This document shows positions 5,388 to 58,713 of a stretch of 64,000 bases of DNA, piece after piece. The stretch spans positions 98,580,001 through 98,644,000 of the forward strand of contig OX597818.1 in NCBI GenBank assembly GCA_951406725.2. The letters are read 5' to 3'. The position numbers and the translations under genes are program-made. Every line of letters starts with the position of its first letter. Position 1 is the first letter of the stretch. Origin of the DNA: Octopus vulgaris (taxonomy: Eukaryota). Below the pieces are notes generated by a model that worked only from the letters and a program-made list of their open reading frames with translations, searched no databases and was not told where the DNA came from.

Positions 5388-5699
5388 CATACACATAACA
5401 GATTTCACTGTTGTTTATGTACCTTAAAAGAAATATCTTATACGTTTCTTAGCTGCATAGACATCGGTTATTACTTGGTCAACCAAGGCAGCTAGCTGGT
5501 AGAATCGTTAGCACGCCCGACAATATACTGTGCGGCATTACTTCAGGCTTTACGTTTCGGTTTCAAATTCTGCCGAGATTGATTTTACCTTTCATCCTTT
5601 CGAGGTTGATAAGTTCCAGTTGAGCACTGGGATCAATGCAAACGACAAGAACCTCCCCCCAAATTCCAGGCCGTGTGCTTATTGTAGAAAGAATTATTT

Positions 5700-6040
<341 letters not shown>

Positions 6041-6733
6041 GCATATGGCGTAGTGGTGAATTATTTGGTCAACATTTTTATCAACGGAAATATTGGCATA
6101 CTTTGGTATATTATTTAGTATTGCTATACTGCTTATTCACGTTTGACCCGTTCAAATCCTTAATCGTATCTTCATTCATCTGCCGCCTTAGAATGAGTGC
6201 TCTGCAGAGCACGTTGAAGCAGGATTGGTTGTTAAAATGGCTACAGTTTTGTTGAAGATTGGCAATATACTTCATGAAGTTAGTCCGTGACAGATTTTGT
6301 GTAAGATTGTCCCTTTTTTTAATAATTTGCGGAGCCAAGCTAAATTGGGTGTGTTGCTTAAAACGTTCTAAATAACACACCCAACCTAAATTGTTACAGA
6401 CACCGCTCCTGTCACTAATAGCTAATTTATTCGTAGCCCACAGGCATTCCGTGAAATCACTGGTTGTTTGGCCATACTACATCGATTCGACTGAGTTTCG
6501 TTCTGGCATTAAGTATAAGGCTGGCTATCGCTGATGATCTCCAACTAAGAGTGAAATCATGTGATACGGTGGTGCCATCTACCGGTTCAGACGATCATTT
6601 CGACAGCCAATATAGTCGGTGCTTAATTAGCACGTGTCGTCAACACCAGATGGCGTCCCTGGACGTTTACAGCATTTTAAGGCGTTCTAAATAACATCTA
6701 ACTTAGATTGGATGTGCCAATTATTATTTATTA

Positions 6734-7435: not shown

Positions 7436-7670
7436 AGGCGGCGAGCTGGCAGAAACGTTAGCACACCGGGCGAAATACTTAGCGGTATTTCGTCTGCCGG
7501 TACGTTCTGAGTTCAAATTCCGCCGAGGTCGACTTTGCCGTTCATCCTTTCGGGTTCGATAAATTAAGTACCAGTTACGCACTGGGGTCGATGTAATCGA
7601 TTTAATCCCTTTGTCTGTCCTTGTTTGTCCCCTCTATGTTTAGCCCCTTGTGGGTAATAAAAAAAATAAG
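7436..7670 (+). mobile_element. SINE S2 full-length monomer
   Basis: ggcggcgagctggcagaaacgttagc... to ...gccccttgtgggtaataaa. Confidence 0.85.
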
Positions 7671-10220: not shown

Positions 10221-10307
10221 GAAGCCTGTCCAAGAAGGACTTGTAATCTTAAGTGGAGCGCCAGCATGTCGGCGCACCGTGCCCACGACTGCGATACAGT
10301 ATAATGA

Positions 10308-10725
10308 AAGTGGTGAGCTGGCAGAATTGTTAGCACGCCGGTCGGAATGCTTAGTGGTATTTCGGCTGCCGCTACGTTCTGAGTTCAAATTCCGCCGAGG
10401 TCGACTTTGCCTTTCATCCTTTCGGGGTCGTTAAATTAAATACCAGTTACGCACTGGGGTCAATGTAATCGACTTAATCCGTTTGTCTGTCCTTGTTTGG
10501 CCTCTCTGTGTTTAGCCCCTTGTGGGTAGTAAAGAAATAGGTATTTTGTCTGCCGCTACGTTCTGAGTTCAAATTCGGCCGAGGTCAACTTTGCCTTTCA
10601 TCCTTTCGCGGTCGATAAATTAAGTACCAGTTACGCACTGGGGTCGATGTAATCGTCTTAATCCCCATGTTTGTCCTTGTTTGTCCCCTCTATGTTTAGC
10701 CCCTTGTGGGCAATAAAGAAATAAG
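10308..10725 (+). mobile_element. SINE S2 tandem dimer
   Basis: Second headless unit starts at ~10541 after junction aaagaaataggtattt. Confidence 0.85.
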
Positions 10726-11376
10726 ATACAGTATAAGGGTGATCTTGATATTTACTCGAGTAATAGTCCCTCCTACTATAGAAACGAGGCCTTATATTAG
10801 GGGTAGAAGAATGTCGATTACATTGACCTCCAGTATTTAACTGGTACTTACTTTATCGATCCCGAAAGGTTGCAGAGCAAAACCGAACTCACCAAATTTT
10901 GAACTCAGAAAGTGAAAATAGACGAAATGCCTCAGCATTTTGCCAGGCGTGCTAACGATGCTGCCAGATCACCGCCTTCATATTTGCTCTAGTAATTATA
11001 TTATGCCATTTATTTAATTATCAATTTATACGGTTTAGAGTGAATACCTGTTTCGCACCCTTGGCTAAGTTGTAGCAACTTGAACAGCAATTCGCGTGAA
11101 ATTTGGTTTTGTTACAAATTCGGAAAATTTTTCAAGAAGTGGCCGTGTGGTAAAGTGTTTGCTTTCCAACCACATGGTTCCGGGTCCAATCCAGCTGCGT
11201 GGCACATTGGGCAAATGTCTTCTACTATAGTCCTGCGCCAACCCAAGCTCTGTGAGTGGATTAGGTAGACGAAAACTGAAACAGATCCGTATATATATAT
11301 ATATTTTTTTCCTCCACCTCACTCTCTATTTTATATCTTATCTAAATTAACTATTTCTTAACTATCCTCTCGCATC

Positions 11377-17409: not shown

Positions 17410-17455
17410 CACATATATATGTATATATACATATCGATATATATATATATATATA

Positions 17456-17749
17456 TATATTATAATAAATTAGAGACAAAACCACTATTATGCAAATCAA
17501 ACAAAGAAAGACTTAAGCCAATACATAAAATATAAAATAATTTATATAAATTAAAATTTAACAAATGAATAACCACTACGATCTTAGACATTAGAAAGTC
17601 TAAGATGTGCTGACACGAAACGATCGTAGTGGTTATTCATTTGTTAAATTTTAATTTATATAAATTATTTTATATTTTATGTATTGGCTTAAGTCTTTCT
17701 TTGTTTGATTTGCATAATAGTGGTTTTGTCTCTAATTTATTATAATATA
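17456..17749. repeat. ~128-bp inverted repeat (family B element) with the HHR 3' half at the arm boundary
   Basis: 17456-17583 is the reverse complement of 17622-17749; GAAA-cgatcg-TA-gtgg at 17617-17632. Confidence 0.9.
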
Positions 17750-17969
17750 ATATTTTATTATAAAATTGGATTCAATCTTAAATCTGATTTTTCCTTGTAA
17801 ATTTGGATTTATTCCCTAATATTTATTATTATATATATGTGTATATATATGCATATATATATGTATATATCTATATACATATGTATATACATGTATGTAT
17901 ATATATGTATATATCTATATACATATGTATATACATGTATGTATATATATATGTACATGTATATATACA

Positions 17970-18015
<46 letters not shown>

Positions 18016-18052
18016 TATAGGTATATATATTTGTATATATATGTATATGTAT

Positions 18053-19235
18053 ATCCGTGGAAAACCTCTACACTGGATTGAGTATTTCCTGGTGAACAGA
18101 ACGCAGCAGGTTGGGGTCGATGGAATCCACTTAAGCCCAGCAAATGTCACCAGCGGTGTCCCTCAGGAGACTGTCTTGGGCCCGCTCCACTTTATAGTCT
18201 ATATAAACGACCTTTCCAGCATCATAAAATACAGCAAAGCGAAAATATTTGCTGATGACTCTAAGCTCCAGAAAATTATCAATGAAGAAGACCGAACTCA
18301 ACGCCAGTCTGATCTATATGCTGTGAATCAATGGACAGGCAAAAACCAAATGCAACTAAACGAGGGAAATTTTGAGCTGATTAATTTTGAAAAAAAAAAA
18401 GACTATGCTAAAACAGCCATACATTATTTACATTTGACGGATATTTGTCCTCATCTTGTTTGTTGTTAACACAACGTTTCGGCTGATATACCCTCCAGTC
18501 AATATCAGCCGAAACGTTGTGTTAACAATAAACAAGATGAGGACAATTATCTGTCAAATGTAAATAATGTAAATAATGTCAAATGTAAATAATGTAAATA
18601 ATGTACATAATTCCTTATCTCTTAAATATAGAACTGTAAAACAGCCATACTATTTTCTTCCAGATGAATCTCTCACGGCATCTAATAATATCAGAGACCT
18701 AGGAGTAATGGTTGATAACAATCTCAGTTGGAGTACCCACATTGACAATAAGGTCGATATAGCTCGCAGGATGCGCTCTTGGATCCTAAGAACCTTCCAG
18801 TCTAGAGAACAAGGTGTCATCATTCCACTTTTCTCGTCCTTTGTACGGCCACACCTCGAATATTATTGCCCCTCCCCCGTGGTCTCTCCATACAGAGCAA
18901 AACATCTCTAAAATTGAATCATCCCAGAGGTCATTCACTAAAAGAATTAAAGGCATGACTGCTCTTGATTACTGGAACCGCCTTAAAGCATTGAAACTCT
19001 ATTCTCTCCAGCGCCGCCGTGAGCGATACATCATTTGCTCGATGTGGAGAATATACCACCAGCATTACCCAAACGACCTCAACATTAGCTTCAAAAGTCA
19101 TCCAAGGCTTAGATCACGAGCCTTACGAACCCTATCCAATTCAGGATCACAACACTTAAATACACTGCAACACAATTTCTTTTCCTCAACAGGCCCTGTC
19201 CTATTTCACATAGTTCCGAAACAGATCAAAGAGAA
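18053..19235 (+). mobile_element. CR1-like LINE reverse-transcriptase fragment (decayed, interrupted)
   Basis: [21 protein letters not shown]...FADDSKL...RDLGVMVDNNLSW...FVRPHLEY...LYSLQRRRERY. Confidence 0.9.
18423..18636. mobile_element. Inverted pair of family A (HHR-SINE) 3' halves inserted in CR1 with a 14-bp TSD
   Basis: TAAAACAGCCATAC at 18409-18422 and 18637-18650; minus arm ~18421-18499, plus arm ~18502-18636. Confidence 0.85.
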
Positions 19236-21865: not shown

Positions 21866-22304
21866 CCATGTATGTATGTATGAATTCATGTATGTATTCT
21901 CGGTTGTCAAGCGGTGGTGGGGAGGGCATTAGTATTTATGCTTTTTGCTATCAAAATAATTGCGAATGTCACTAAAAGTGACTAGGGTGTTAGGAAATAC
22001 CTACATTGCTGCTGTTGTTAACGAACATGAATGAAAACATACATTAACATTTAGTAACATTTGTAATTCTTATTTTTGGCGAAACATTGCAAAATGCTGT
22101 TTATATTAATTTTATAAATAGACAATAACGAATCGCTAGATGATCCATTTATTCGGATTCCTGTTGTAAAGTGGGTTCCCCTCATTGGTGATATGTGTGA
22201 CTGCCGTTGTACTGTAGTTGCTGTTTTACACTAGTAGCCACAATAGTTACTAGTAATCTGATACCGTTGTATCTCTCCGTACCGGAATAGTAATACACTC
22301 CCTT

Positions 22305-22896
22305 CTTATTTCTTTATTGCCCACAAGGGGCTAAACATAGAGGGGACAGACAAACGGATCAAGTCGATTACATCGACCCCAGTGCGTAACTGGTACTTAT
22401 TTAATCGACCCCGAAAGGATGAAAGGCAAAGTCGACCTCGGCGGAATTTGAACTCAGAATGTAGCAGCAGACGAAATACCTGTTTCTTTACTACCCACAA
22501 GGGGCTAAACACAGAGAGGACAAACCAGGACAGACAAACGGATCAAGTCGATTACATCGACCCCAGTGCATAACTAGTATTTATTTAATCGATCCCAAAA
22601 GGATGAAAGGCAACGTCGACCTCGGCGGAATTTGAACTCAGAAAGTAGCGGCAGACGAAATACCTATTTCTTTACTACCCACAGGGGCTAAACACAGAGA
22701 GGACAAACAAGGACAGACAAACGGATTAAGTCGATTATATCGATCCCTGTGCGTAACTGATACTTAATTTATCGACCCCGAAAGGATGAAAGGCAAAGTC
22801 GACCTCGGCGGAATTTGAACTCAGAACGTAACGGCAGACGAAATACGGCTACGCATTTCGCCCGGCGCGCTAACGATTCTGCCAGCTCGCCGCCTT
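22305..22896 (-). mobile_element. SINE S2 tandem trimer
   Basis: One head (~22850-22896) followed by three ~180-bp units. Confidence 0.88.
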
Positions 22897-23208
22897 AATA
22901 CACTAACTTCTGTCTTAATATCGCTGATAGCTCCACAAGACACCGACTAGAACTGTCGACTCTCAATGCTTCGCCTCTCGCCCTAATTTGCCGACTGGAT
23001 ACTGGTCTATTTATAATGGCTGCTTTTACCGCTTTTTACCGGTAGGGGTATACAGTTTCACTATGAAGCAATGACGAAAACATAAATACTAATGGCGAAG
23101 CGAGTCCGGAAAGAGCTGAACAATCGAGCGGGCGTAACCGATAAGGTAACGGAAATTGCCTAAACTGACGTGTCAGCACTAAGAATTCTAGATCGGTACT
23201 TTACGGGT

Positions 23209-23390
23209 GATTATGGTTCCTGTTAGGGTATATGTTTTCATTCATGTGCGTTAACTACAGTATTAGAGGGATTTAGCTCTTATTTCTAGCAATGTAGGCG
23301 TTGTATATTGCTAGAAATAAGAGCTAAACGCTCTGATGGTGTAGTTAACGCACATGAATGAAAACATACACACTAACAGGGACCATAATC
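23209..23390. mobile_element. Palindromic MITE-like element (~85-90-bp arms)
   Basis: gattatggttcctgttag...tatttctagcaat / attgctagaaata...ctaacagggaccataatc; arm fragment also near 22017-22050. Confidence 0.7.
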
Positions 23391-23627
23391 CCACGGGCAT
23401 ATGGCGTAGTCGTTAAGAGCGCGGGCTACTAACCCCAAGATTCTGAGTTCGATTCCAGGCAGTGGCCTGAATAATAATAATAATAATAATAACAACAGCA
23501 TCGAAAAATACATTAGGAATGAGAGTCCATGTTCTAAATTTCCCCAAGACACCTGATGAAGGCTGGAGGGTATATGAGCCGAAACAAACAAGATGAGGAC
23601 TAATATCCGTCAAATATAAATAATGTA
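23391..23627 (+). mobile_element. tRNA-headed SINE with hammerhead motif (family A), head intact
   Basis: A-box TGGCGTAGTCG (23402), B-box GTTCGATTCC (23447), (AAT)n, gacac-CTGATGA-aggctg..gagcc-GAAAC (23548-23585); cleavage-site segment deleted in this copy. Confidence 0.85.
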
Positions 23628-23657
23628 GATGTTGCCTAATATCCTAGTCACATTTAG

Positions 23658-24805: not shown

Positions 24806-24827
24806 CCACACTTTATTGTTATTATAA

Positions 24828-25703
24828 TTATTCAGGCCTTGTGCCTATTGTAGAAAATATTATTTTGAATATTGTGCCCCTTTCCCCAAAATATTTCAGG
24901 CCTTGTGCCTATTGTAGAAAAGATTATTTTGAATATTGTGCCCCTTTCCCCAAAAAATTTCAGGCCTTGTGCCTATTGTAGAAAAGATTATTTTGAATAT
25001 TGTGCCCTTTCCCCAAAATATTCAGGCCTTGTGCCTATTATGGAAGAGATTATTTTGAGTATTGTGCCCCTTTCCCCCAAAAATTTCAGGCCTAGTGCCT
25101 ATTGTAGAAAAGATTATTTTGAATATTGTGCCCCTTTCTCCCAAAAATTTCAGGCCTTGTGCCTATTGTAGAAAAGATTATTTTGAATATTGTGCCCCTT
25201 TCCCCAAAAAATTTCAGGCCTTGTGCCTATTGTAGAAAAGATTATTTTAAATATTGTGCCCCTTTCCCCAAAAAATTTCAGGCCTTGTGCCTATTGTAGA
25301 AAAGATTATTTTAAATATTGTGTCCCTTTCACCCCCCCCAAATAATTTCAGGCCTTGTGCCTATTGTAGTGAAGATTATTTTGAATATTGTGCCCCTATC
25401 CCCAAAATATTTCAGGCCTTGTGCCTATTGTAGAAAAGATTATTTTAAATATTGTGCCCCTTTCCCCCCACCCCAAATTTCAGGCCTTGTGCCTATTGTA
25501 GAAAAGATTATTTTAAATATTGTGCCCCTTTCCCCCCAAAAAATTTCAGGCCTTGTGCCTATTGTAGAAAAGATTATTTTGAATATTGTGCCCCTTTCCC
25601 CAAAAAATTTCAGGCCTTGTGCCTATTGTAGAAAAGATTATTTTGAATATTGTGCCCCTTTCCACCCCCAAATTTCAGGCCTTGTGCCTATTGTAGAAAA
25701 TTA
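24828..25703 (+). repeat. ~64-bp minisatellite, about 14 copies, built from a SINE S2-type tail
   Basis: Unit aaatttcaggccttgtgcctattgtagaaaagattattttgaatattgtgcccctttcccc; compare SINE tail at 5655-5697. Confidence 0.92.
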
Positions 25704-25760
25704 TTATTATTATTATTATTATTATCATCATTATTATTATTACTACTACTACTACTGCTG

Positions 25761-58459: not shown

Positions 58460-58552
<93 letters not shown>

Positions 58553-58713
58553 ACAAAAACAACATCGAAGAATACCTTAGGAATGAGCAATCAGGTTCGA
58601 AATTTCCCCAAGACACCTGATGAAGGCTGGAGGGTATATCAACCGAAACGTTGTGTTGACAACAAACAAGATGAGGACAAATATCCGTCAAATGTAAATA
58701 ATGTAAATAATGT
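58441..58713 (+). mobile_element. Family A HHR-SINE copy lacking the tRNA head
   Basis: Microsatellite, body and aatgtaaat tail match 23470-23627. Confidence 0.8.
58612..58657 (+). ncRNA. Minimal hammerhead ribozyme (family A, most intact copy)
   Basis: gacac-CTGATGA-a-ggctg(gagggtatat)caacc-GAAA-cg-TT-gtgtt; helix III reduced to the palindrome AACGTT. Confidence 0.8.

What the first reader, a model, noticed from the sequence alone, without database searches (positions are those of the whole stretch)
18409..18650. Inverted HHR-SINE insertion with a clean 14-bp target-site duplication inside a CR1 RT
Seen: TAAAACAGCCATAC flanks an insertion made of an inverted partial family A 3' half followed by a forward 3' half; both arms break inside HHR stem II. 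The forward arm shows the apparent true 3' end (...ataattccttatctcttaaatatagaactg) with no poly(A). Established: inverted terminal segments are typical of Penelope insertions. Inference: this single event shows family A is mobile and uses PLE-like integration.
Basis: partly seen in the sequence, partly recalled or inferred. Interest (0 to 1): 0.75.

Follow-up and report, generated by a model that had tools for sequence, protein, structure and literature searches.

The report
Back-to-back Penelope ends inside CR1

Summary
The insertion is real: 214 bp between exact 14-mers, arms 96% complementary; 11 of 11 paralogous CR1 copies carry the site once and empty. 'Family A' is not a SINE. It is the terminal repeat (pLTR) of a Penelope/Poseidon-type element encoding RT and endonuclease. 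The insert is the start of its ORF, and the 'true 3' end' runs on into the ORF in long copies, so it is likely an internal RT start, as in Anolis Poseidon. Head-to-head inversions occur in 21 of 30 copies against 0 of 25 for a control SINE; TSDs are 8-16 bp. Corrections: breaks in stem II are not enriched (7 of 44 arms); 5 of the 14 TSD bases also match the element; excision does not restore the CR1 frame. Unusual part: a tRNA-like head follows the stop codon, short copies pile up at its start, and the 2.65-kb unit has no sense-strand TTTT (controls 3-4 per kb), which suggests Pol III transcription. The scan found this family before on other DNA of this genome (e1-8669850).

The parts
18409..18422 (+). 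Left copy of the 14-bp target duplication (CR1 sequence, codons L-K-Q-P-Y); its last 3 nt also match the inverted arm
18423..18498 (-). Inverted, tail-less arm: ORF nt 45-123 of the Penelope-type element counting the 3-nt overlap with the TSD; 100% identical to the family majority over 79 nt
18499..18501 (.). 3-nt junction (TCA) matching neither arm
18502..18636 (+). Forward arm: ORF nt 54-154; 3' half of hammerhead stem II, GAAA, cleavage triplet, 9-nt in-frame repeats with a 25-nt tandem duplication (18552-18601), and the 36-nt tail; 95-98% identical to the majority
18601..18636 (+). One-sided 36-nt tail; its end is the likely outer RT start site and continues into the ORF in long copies
18637..18650 (+). 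Right copy of the target duplication; first 2 nt also equal the element's continuation
18050..18408 (+). Host LINE RT fragment upstream (Pfam RVT_1, E 5.7e-05, under the cut-off; CR1 label recalled from motifs, not tested); frame broken at the A-run 18390-18400
18651..19230 (+). Host LINE fragment downstream, colinear with paralogues at the junction, with further frameshifts
23383..23646 (+). Longer solo copy of the same terminal repeat with tRNA-like head
5693..6051 (-). Solo copy of the terminal repeat with a snap-back hairpin at the head
58545..58713 (+). 5'-truncated solo copy with the whole hammerhead, no tail

Best explanation
The insert is a head-to-head pair of 5'-truncated terminal-repeat ends of a protein-coding Penelope/Poseidon-type retroelement, likely made when the element's enzyme nicked both strands of a decayed CR1 9-14 nt apart and primed one cDNA from each nick. 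Shown: the unit reads RT - endonuclease - stop - tRNA-like head - (AAT)n - ATG - minimal hammerhead - in-frame 9-nt repeats - 36-nt tail - rest of ORF. Inferred from the Anolis Poseidon model: RT starts inside the ORF at two sites that bound the tail. The right nick primed at the tail end (2-nt match), the left nick about 36 nt upstream (3-nt match), both cDNAs stopped after 76-135 nt and were joined with 3 extra bases. Because RT starts near the 5' end of the RNA, most products are short, SINE-like solo repeats. The hammerhead played no visible part in this event.
For: Endonuclease end directly followed by the head in 28 of 29 loci chosen on the endonuclease. RT-EN-head-hammerhead colinear in most of 29 longer stretches. 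Tail abuts the ORF continuation in 16 of 30 loci. The insert's region translates to the ORF N-terminus and aligns with an intact 847-aa homologue from another source (42-44% over about 250 aa, E 1e-64 and 5e-59). RT hits PF00078; homologues carrying PF01541 align at 39-42% through the endonuclease. Inversions 21 of 30 vs 0 of 25, P=2e-8. TSDs 8-16 bp, median 12, in 29 of 34. Tail on both arms in only 2 of 36. The tail-less arm reaches further 5' in 13 of 20 pairs, this one included, which copying of the tail-bearing cDNA alone cannot give. Tail end lies 84 nt past the hammerhead cut; Anolis PAc starts RT 85-92 nt past it and cuts and extends both strands (PMC11167929). Solo and ORF-linked repeats share majority and polymorphisms.
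Against: No intact ORF found: longest stop-free stretch seen 569 aa, copies about 8% from the majority, so the enzyme is inferred from decayed copies. Pfam GIY-YIG did not hit this family's endonuclease directly. Perfect snap-back hairpins at the head (6 events) show that self-priming also happens in this family. Arms of one locus share variants more than random pairs (0 of 2000 permutations), which fits one template copied twice or later gene conversion as well as two nicks. One control SINE only. Loci L112 and L114 share a flank and may be one event.
Confidence: 0.85

Rival explanations
1. A true non-autonomous tRNA SINE with a hammerhead tail, spreading from its own master copies with a Penelope enzyme acting in trans.
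For: Most copies are short and many begin at the tRNA-like head (21 of 46 within -6..+5). Solo copies in my sample are slightly closer to the majority (4.9% vs 6.2%), though they were chosen on exact matches.
Against: No majority difference between 55 solo loci and 78 ORF-linked loci; the core T/A variant is 19 of 73 vs 18 of 75. The body is coding. Solo copies stop at the RT start and lack the ORF stretch behind it that PAc needs (to +172; PMC11167929).
Confidence: 0.08
2. One cDNA folded back at the palindromic stem II and primed its own second strand (self-priming model of PMC3846280).
For: The junction lies in stem II; snap-back hairpins exist at the head; arms of a locus share variants.
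Against: Here the tail-less arm holds 9 nt that the tail arm lacks, and the tail arm holds the tail that the other lacks, so neither is a full template for the other. Stem II ends are not enriched. 3 extra bases sit at the junction.
Confidence: 0.15
3. Post-insertion rearrangement or assembly artefact made the palindrome.
For: Palindromes are assembly-prone; contigs of four other runs did not bridge the site.
Against: Arms differ at 3 of 70 nt; the TSD flanks the whole pair; the same layout holds in 70% of copies and in none of the control SINE.
Confidence: 0.03

Closest known systems
Poseidon_Ac (PAc) of Anolis carolinensis (PMC11167929; parts 1-2 of 4 read)
   Same: Hammerhead overlapping the ORF start, internal RT starts bounding a 30-40 nt tail, about 85-90 nt from ribozyme cut to outer start, both strands cut and extended.
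   Different: Here the ATG lies 34 nt upstream of the hammerhead core, in-frame 9-nt repeats sit before the tail, and the repeat opens with a tRNA-like head; none is mentioned for PAc in the parts read.
Adineta vaga Penelope insertions, e.g. Pen2a/Pen2/Pen3a (PMC3846280; passages read)
   Same: Inverted pLTR, one-sided tail, 8-10 bp TSD, pLTR holding the first codons, palindrome at the pLTR 5' end, insertion into a non-LTR element.
   Different: Those pLTRs have putative TATA/Inr motifs; this one has tRNA-type A/B-box-like motifs; this insert has no ORF body.
Minimal type I hammerheads of metazoan PLEs (PMC4209133; parts 1-2 of 4 read)
   Same: 5-bp helix I, long helix II, unpaired nt 5' of helix II, no helix III stem; opposite-strand pairs 100-700 bp apart already reported.
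   Different: Both arms of this insert lack the core; activity untested.
TRIMp3 elements Cassandra, Helenus, Ajax (PMC10886601; passages read)
   Same: Small-RNA-derived Pol III promoter inside a terminal repeat.
   Different: They are non-coding LTR elements under 1.3 kb; that paper expects autonomous partners to use Pol II. This element is coding, 2.65 kb and Penelope-type.
Animal non-LTR retrozymes (PMC7229834, passages; bioRxiv 10.64898/2026.07.22.740005, parts 1-2 of 5)
   Same: Type I hammerhead, Penelope link, TSDs over 4 bp.
   Different: Retrozymes are non-coding tandem monomers; this repeat is part of a coding unit and is mostly inverted, not tandem.

Membership tests
EN+ Penelope-like element, Penelope/Poseidon type | Single ORF with PLE-type RT | tested here: met
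   PF00078 (29.9 bits, cut-off 29.6); 32% to the genome's other GIY-YIG+RT family; 826-855 aa homologues at 40-55%; ORF read from decayed copies
EN+ Penelope-like element, Penelope/Poseidon type | C-terminal GIY-YIG endonuclease with CCHH motif | tested here: met
   No direct Pfam hit; aligns through the endonuclease with three PF01541-bearing homologues at 39-42% and weakly with the L073 endonuclease (E 3e-04); C-x-C..H..H seen
EN+ Penelope-like element, Penelope/Poseidon type | No CX2-5CxxC linker between RT and EN (present in Neptune/Nematis; PMC8557442) | tested here: met
   Absent; present in the L047/L055-type family
EN+ Penelope-like element, Penelope/Poseidon type | pLTR from partial tandems, holding the ORF start | tested here: met
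   EN-head-hammerhead-(tail)-ORF in L244 and L246; repeat at both ends in L206
EN+ Penelope-like element, Penelope/Poseidon type | Adjacent inverted 5'-truncated copy; one-sided 30-40 nt tail; TSD | tested here: met
   21 of 30; tail on both arms in 2 of 36; TSD in 29 of 34
EN+ Penelope-like element, Penelope/Poseidon type | Minimal hammerhead in the pLTR | tested here: met
   Motif and helices conserved in 87 arms; no Rfam hit at gathering score; cleavage not testable
EN+ Penelope-like element, Penelope/Poseidon type | Placement in the Penelope/Poseidon clade on an RT tree | not tested
   No named reference set was at hand; homologues are unnamed as to clade
tRNA-derived SINE | tRNA-derived head with A and B boxes | tested here: inconclusive
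   Aligns to Rfam tRNA positions 8-63 at 12.6 bits, E 3.3, gathering 29; another copy gave no tRNA hit; ARAGORN none; box motifs read by eye from recalled consensus
tRNA-derived SINE | Non-coding lineage separate from any autonomous element | tested here: not met
tRNA-derived SINE | Insert 3' end equals the RNA 3' end | tested here: not met
   Sequence continues into the ORF
Non-LTR retrozyme | Non-coding head-to-tail repeats, each with a whole hammerhead | tested here: not met
Pol III-transcribed element | Start at the tRNA-like head, no TTTT inside, Pol III occupancy | tested here: inconclusive
   5' pile-up and no T4; occupancy and RNA 5' ends not testable; RNA reads were unstranded
CR1 LINE (host) | CR1-clade RT | not tested
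   RT shown; clade label recalled from motifs

The most novel reading that the evidence does not exclude
An autonomous, protein-coding Penelope element that is transcribed over its whole 2.65-kb unit by RNA polymerase III from a tRNA-derived promoter captured in its terminal repeat, has purged Pol III terminators from its ORF, and sheds thousands of SINE-like solo repeats through internal RT initiation.
Probability: 0.4. Interest if true: 0.75.

Novelty: new variant of a known kind. Interest (0 to 1): 0.4.

Why it matters
The event itself is an ordinary Penelope-type insertion, caught cleanly because paralogous CR1 copies give the empty site. Two points go further. First, a repeat that any pipeline would call a tRNA SINE is the end of a coding element, so some SINE counts in such genomes may be mislabelled Penelope ends. 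Second, if Pol III reads the whole unit, it breaks the usual split (autonomous = Pol II, SINE = Pol III), raises the question of how an uncapped RNA is translated, and shows a direct route from an autonomous element to SINE-like offspring. The thousands of two-armed insertions also let the in vitro two-start, two-strand model be tested on genome data.

Tried and rejected
Rfam at gathering score: no hit in the window. ARAGORN: none. First candidate partner, a young family with intact 781-aa RT+GIY-YIG ORFs: no shared terminal repeat in 50 loci, rejected. An early idea that the ATG inside the hammerhead core opens the ORF was wrong; the frame is another and starts 34 nt upstream. RNA: no RNA holder listed on record; three raw RNA runs of a coded organism gave thousands of reads on both strands from unstranded libraries and no place where many molecules begin or end, uninformative on start site or cleavage. 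Empty sites in other samples: contigs of four runs did not bridge the locus, no verdict. PDB: only weak RT matches. A same-clade control for TTTT avoidance was sought, but all 30 loci fetched were this family. The first codon-shuffle test was out of frame and is not used; my continuity regex was faulty (0 of 30) and is replaced by the BLAST layout. The RNA fold of one copy gives stems I and II plus a stem pairing the tail with sequence upstream of it, another copy folds otherwise; not relied on. Repbase and Dfam could not be searched; paper supplements were not read, and the family may be listed there.

Full report
Observation. The 14-mer stands exactly twice, 228 nt apart, around a 214-nt insert whose first 70 nt are 96% complementary to the next arm. 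The window lies in a 2.8-Gb animal genome. Eleven other copies of the host LINE all carry the site once and empty, 6 exact and 5 with one mismatch. So the duplication is host sequence made on insertion. Cutting out the insert restores colinearity but not the frame, because an A-run just upstream is 4 nt too long. The duplication overlaps the element at both ends: after the tail most copies go on with TA (30 and 39 of 43), and the last three bases match the inverted arm. The stagger is therefore 9 to 14 nt.

Family behaviour. One exact 34-mer of the tail has 2,608 copies. In the first 30 of these by position, 21 have a head-to-head inverted copy within 300 nt; for a control tRNA-type SINE of the window (21,787 exact copies) it is 0 of 25, after dropping 5 loci that repeated the same tandem arrays (P=2e-8). 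Two of the 30 share a flank and may be one event. Of 60 loci, 54 could be anchored on a tail, 36 of these had an inverted arm, and only 2 had a tail on both arms. Of the other 34 (this insert included), 29 show a flanking direct repeat against 4% of shuffled flank pairs; lengths are 8-16 nt, median 12, one 26 in a TA run, with one mismatch allowed. Breakpoints are scattered: 7 of 44 arm ends fall in stem II, 9 expected.

What family A is. I first read it as a non-autonomous element; the genome's young 781-aa RT+GIY-YIG family proved unrelated. Upstream of the tRNA-like head in L119 lies an endonuclease-like end. Of 29 further loci chosen on that end, 28 continue into the head. Longer stretches show RT, endonuclease, head, hammerhead in one line. 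On the other side the tail abuts the ORF continuation in 16 of 30 loci chosen on that continuation. The frame opens at an ATG 34 nt before the hammerhead core and runs through the ribozyme, the 9-nt repeats and the tail. It aligns with an intact 847-aa homologue from another source, insert region included. The RT-endonuclease linker lacks the zinc-finger that marks Neptune and Nematis (PMC8557442, passages), so the type is Penelope/Poseidon; no tree was made. Solo and ORF-linked repeats share every majority base and the common variants (55 vs 78 loci). No intact ORF was seen; copies are about 8% from the majority. The insert is younger than most: left arm 100%, right arm 95-98%.

Mechanism. 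In the Anolis element PAc the protein cuts and extends both strands, and RT starts inside the ORF at two sites that bound the tail, 85-92 nt past the ribozyme cut; cleavage is not needed (PMC11167929, parts 1-2 of 4). Here the tail ends 84 nt past the cut. I infer two cDNAs, one from each nick, one starting at the tail end and one about 36 nt upstream, joined head to head. The tail-less arm reaches further 5' in 13 of 20 pairs, the tail arm in 6, equal in 1, so fold-back copying of the tail-bearing strand cannot explain most pairs, this one included. Against a pure two-nick view: perfect snap-back hairpins occur at the head in 6 events, and arms of one locus are more alike than random pairs (8.8% vs 10.1% difference; shared variants 0.96% vs 0.41%; 36 pairs, 0 of 2000 permutations). 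That points to one template lineage per event, or to later conversion. Inverted pLTR, one-sided tail and TSD are described for Adineta (PMC3846280, passages) and PLEs in general; the ribozyme fits the minimal type (PMC4209133, parts 1-2 of 4).

The unusual part. A tRNA-like stretch follows the stop codon. It aligns to tRNA positions 8-63 but only at 12.6 bits. Of 46 arms that include the head, in loci not chosen on the ORF, 21 begin within -6..+5 of the tRNA +1 and 2 extend beyond -30; the filter missed two more that run into the ORF (L117, L119). Genome-wide, exact 27-mers give 890 for the head and 473 just upstream; this raw drop is only 1.9-fold, though the head word holds CpGs that decay fast. 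A hairpin at the same place could also stop RT. The majority of the 2,647-nt unit has no run of four T on the sense strand against 30 runs of four A. Over 768 codons the expectation is 5.3 from third-position composition (P=0.002) but only 2.5 when codon usage is kept (P=0.05); Phe favours TTC 14 to 5 (P=0.03). Real copies hold 0.43 T4 per kb, against 3.8 for the other PLE family and 3.2 for the host LINE. No same-clade control exists in this genome. This suggests Pol III transcription of the whole unit but does not show it; RNA reads were unstranded and uninformative.

Literature. Searches for a Penelope element with a tRNA or Pol III promoter, or a Penelope-mobilised tRNA SINE (listings seen) turned up none. 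Pol III promoters in terminal repeats are known for non-coding LTR elements, where autonomous partners are expected to use Pol II (PMC10886601, passages). The Octopus repeat paper (PMC13282606, passages) has no ribozyme mention in its main text; earlier notes call this genome an octopus, which I did not test. Repbase, Dfam and supplements were not seen and may hold the family.

Verdict. Real insertion, Penelope-type integration confirmed, SINE label rejected. The event is of a known kind. The family is a variant worth following for its likely Pol III promoter, already noted elsewhere in this scan. Interest 0.4.

Noticed in passing
L073-L088 (G000, many contigs): A young family with many intact 781-aa RT+GIY-YIG ORFs and a Cys-rich linker (Neptune-like), long repetitive 3' region, no match to family A.
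   Followed up: partly
window 17422-17753: Another head-to-head palindrome in (TA)n just left of the host LINE, with both arms matching 2706-2848 and a GAAAC motif at its centre; possibly another Penelope-type end.
   Followed up: no
window 18552-18601; L019; L017: The 25-nt duplication in the forward arm recurs in L019 and as a 16-nt form in L017; it may mark slippage at the inner RT start.
   Followed up: no
window 7436-7665, 10300-10726, 22304-22900: Very abundant tRNA-type SINE (21,787 exact 34-mers) that often forms 184-nt head-to-tail tandems (8 of 25 loci) and showed no inversion.
   Followed up: partly
L009, L017, L018, L021, L025, window about 6040: Perfect snap-back hairpins at the 5' end of the tRNA-like head that differ from the templated upstream sequence.
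   Followed up: partly
L238, L244 and four unfetched hits: Several copies end about 390 nt into the ORF continuation; a shared deletion form or a second stop point is possible.
   Followed up: no
window 24824-25717: Tandem array of about 65-nt units at about 91% identity.
   Followed up: no
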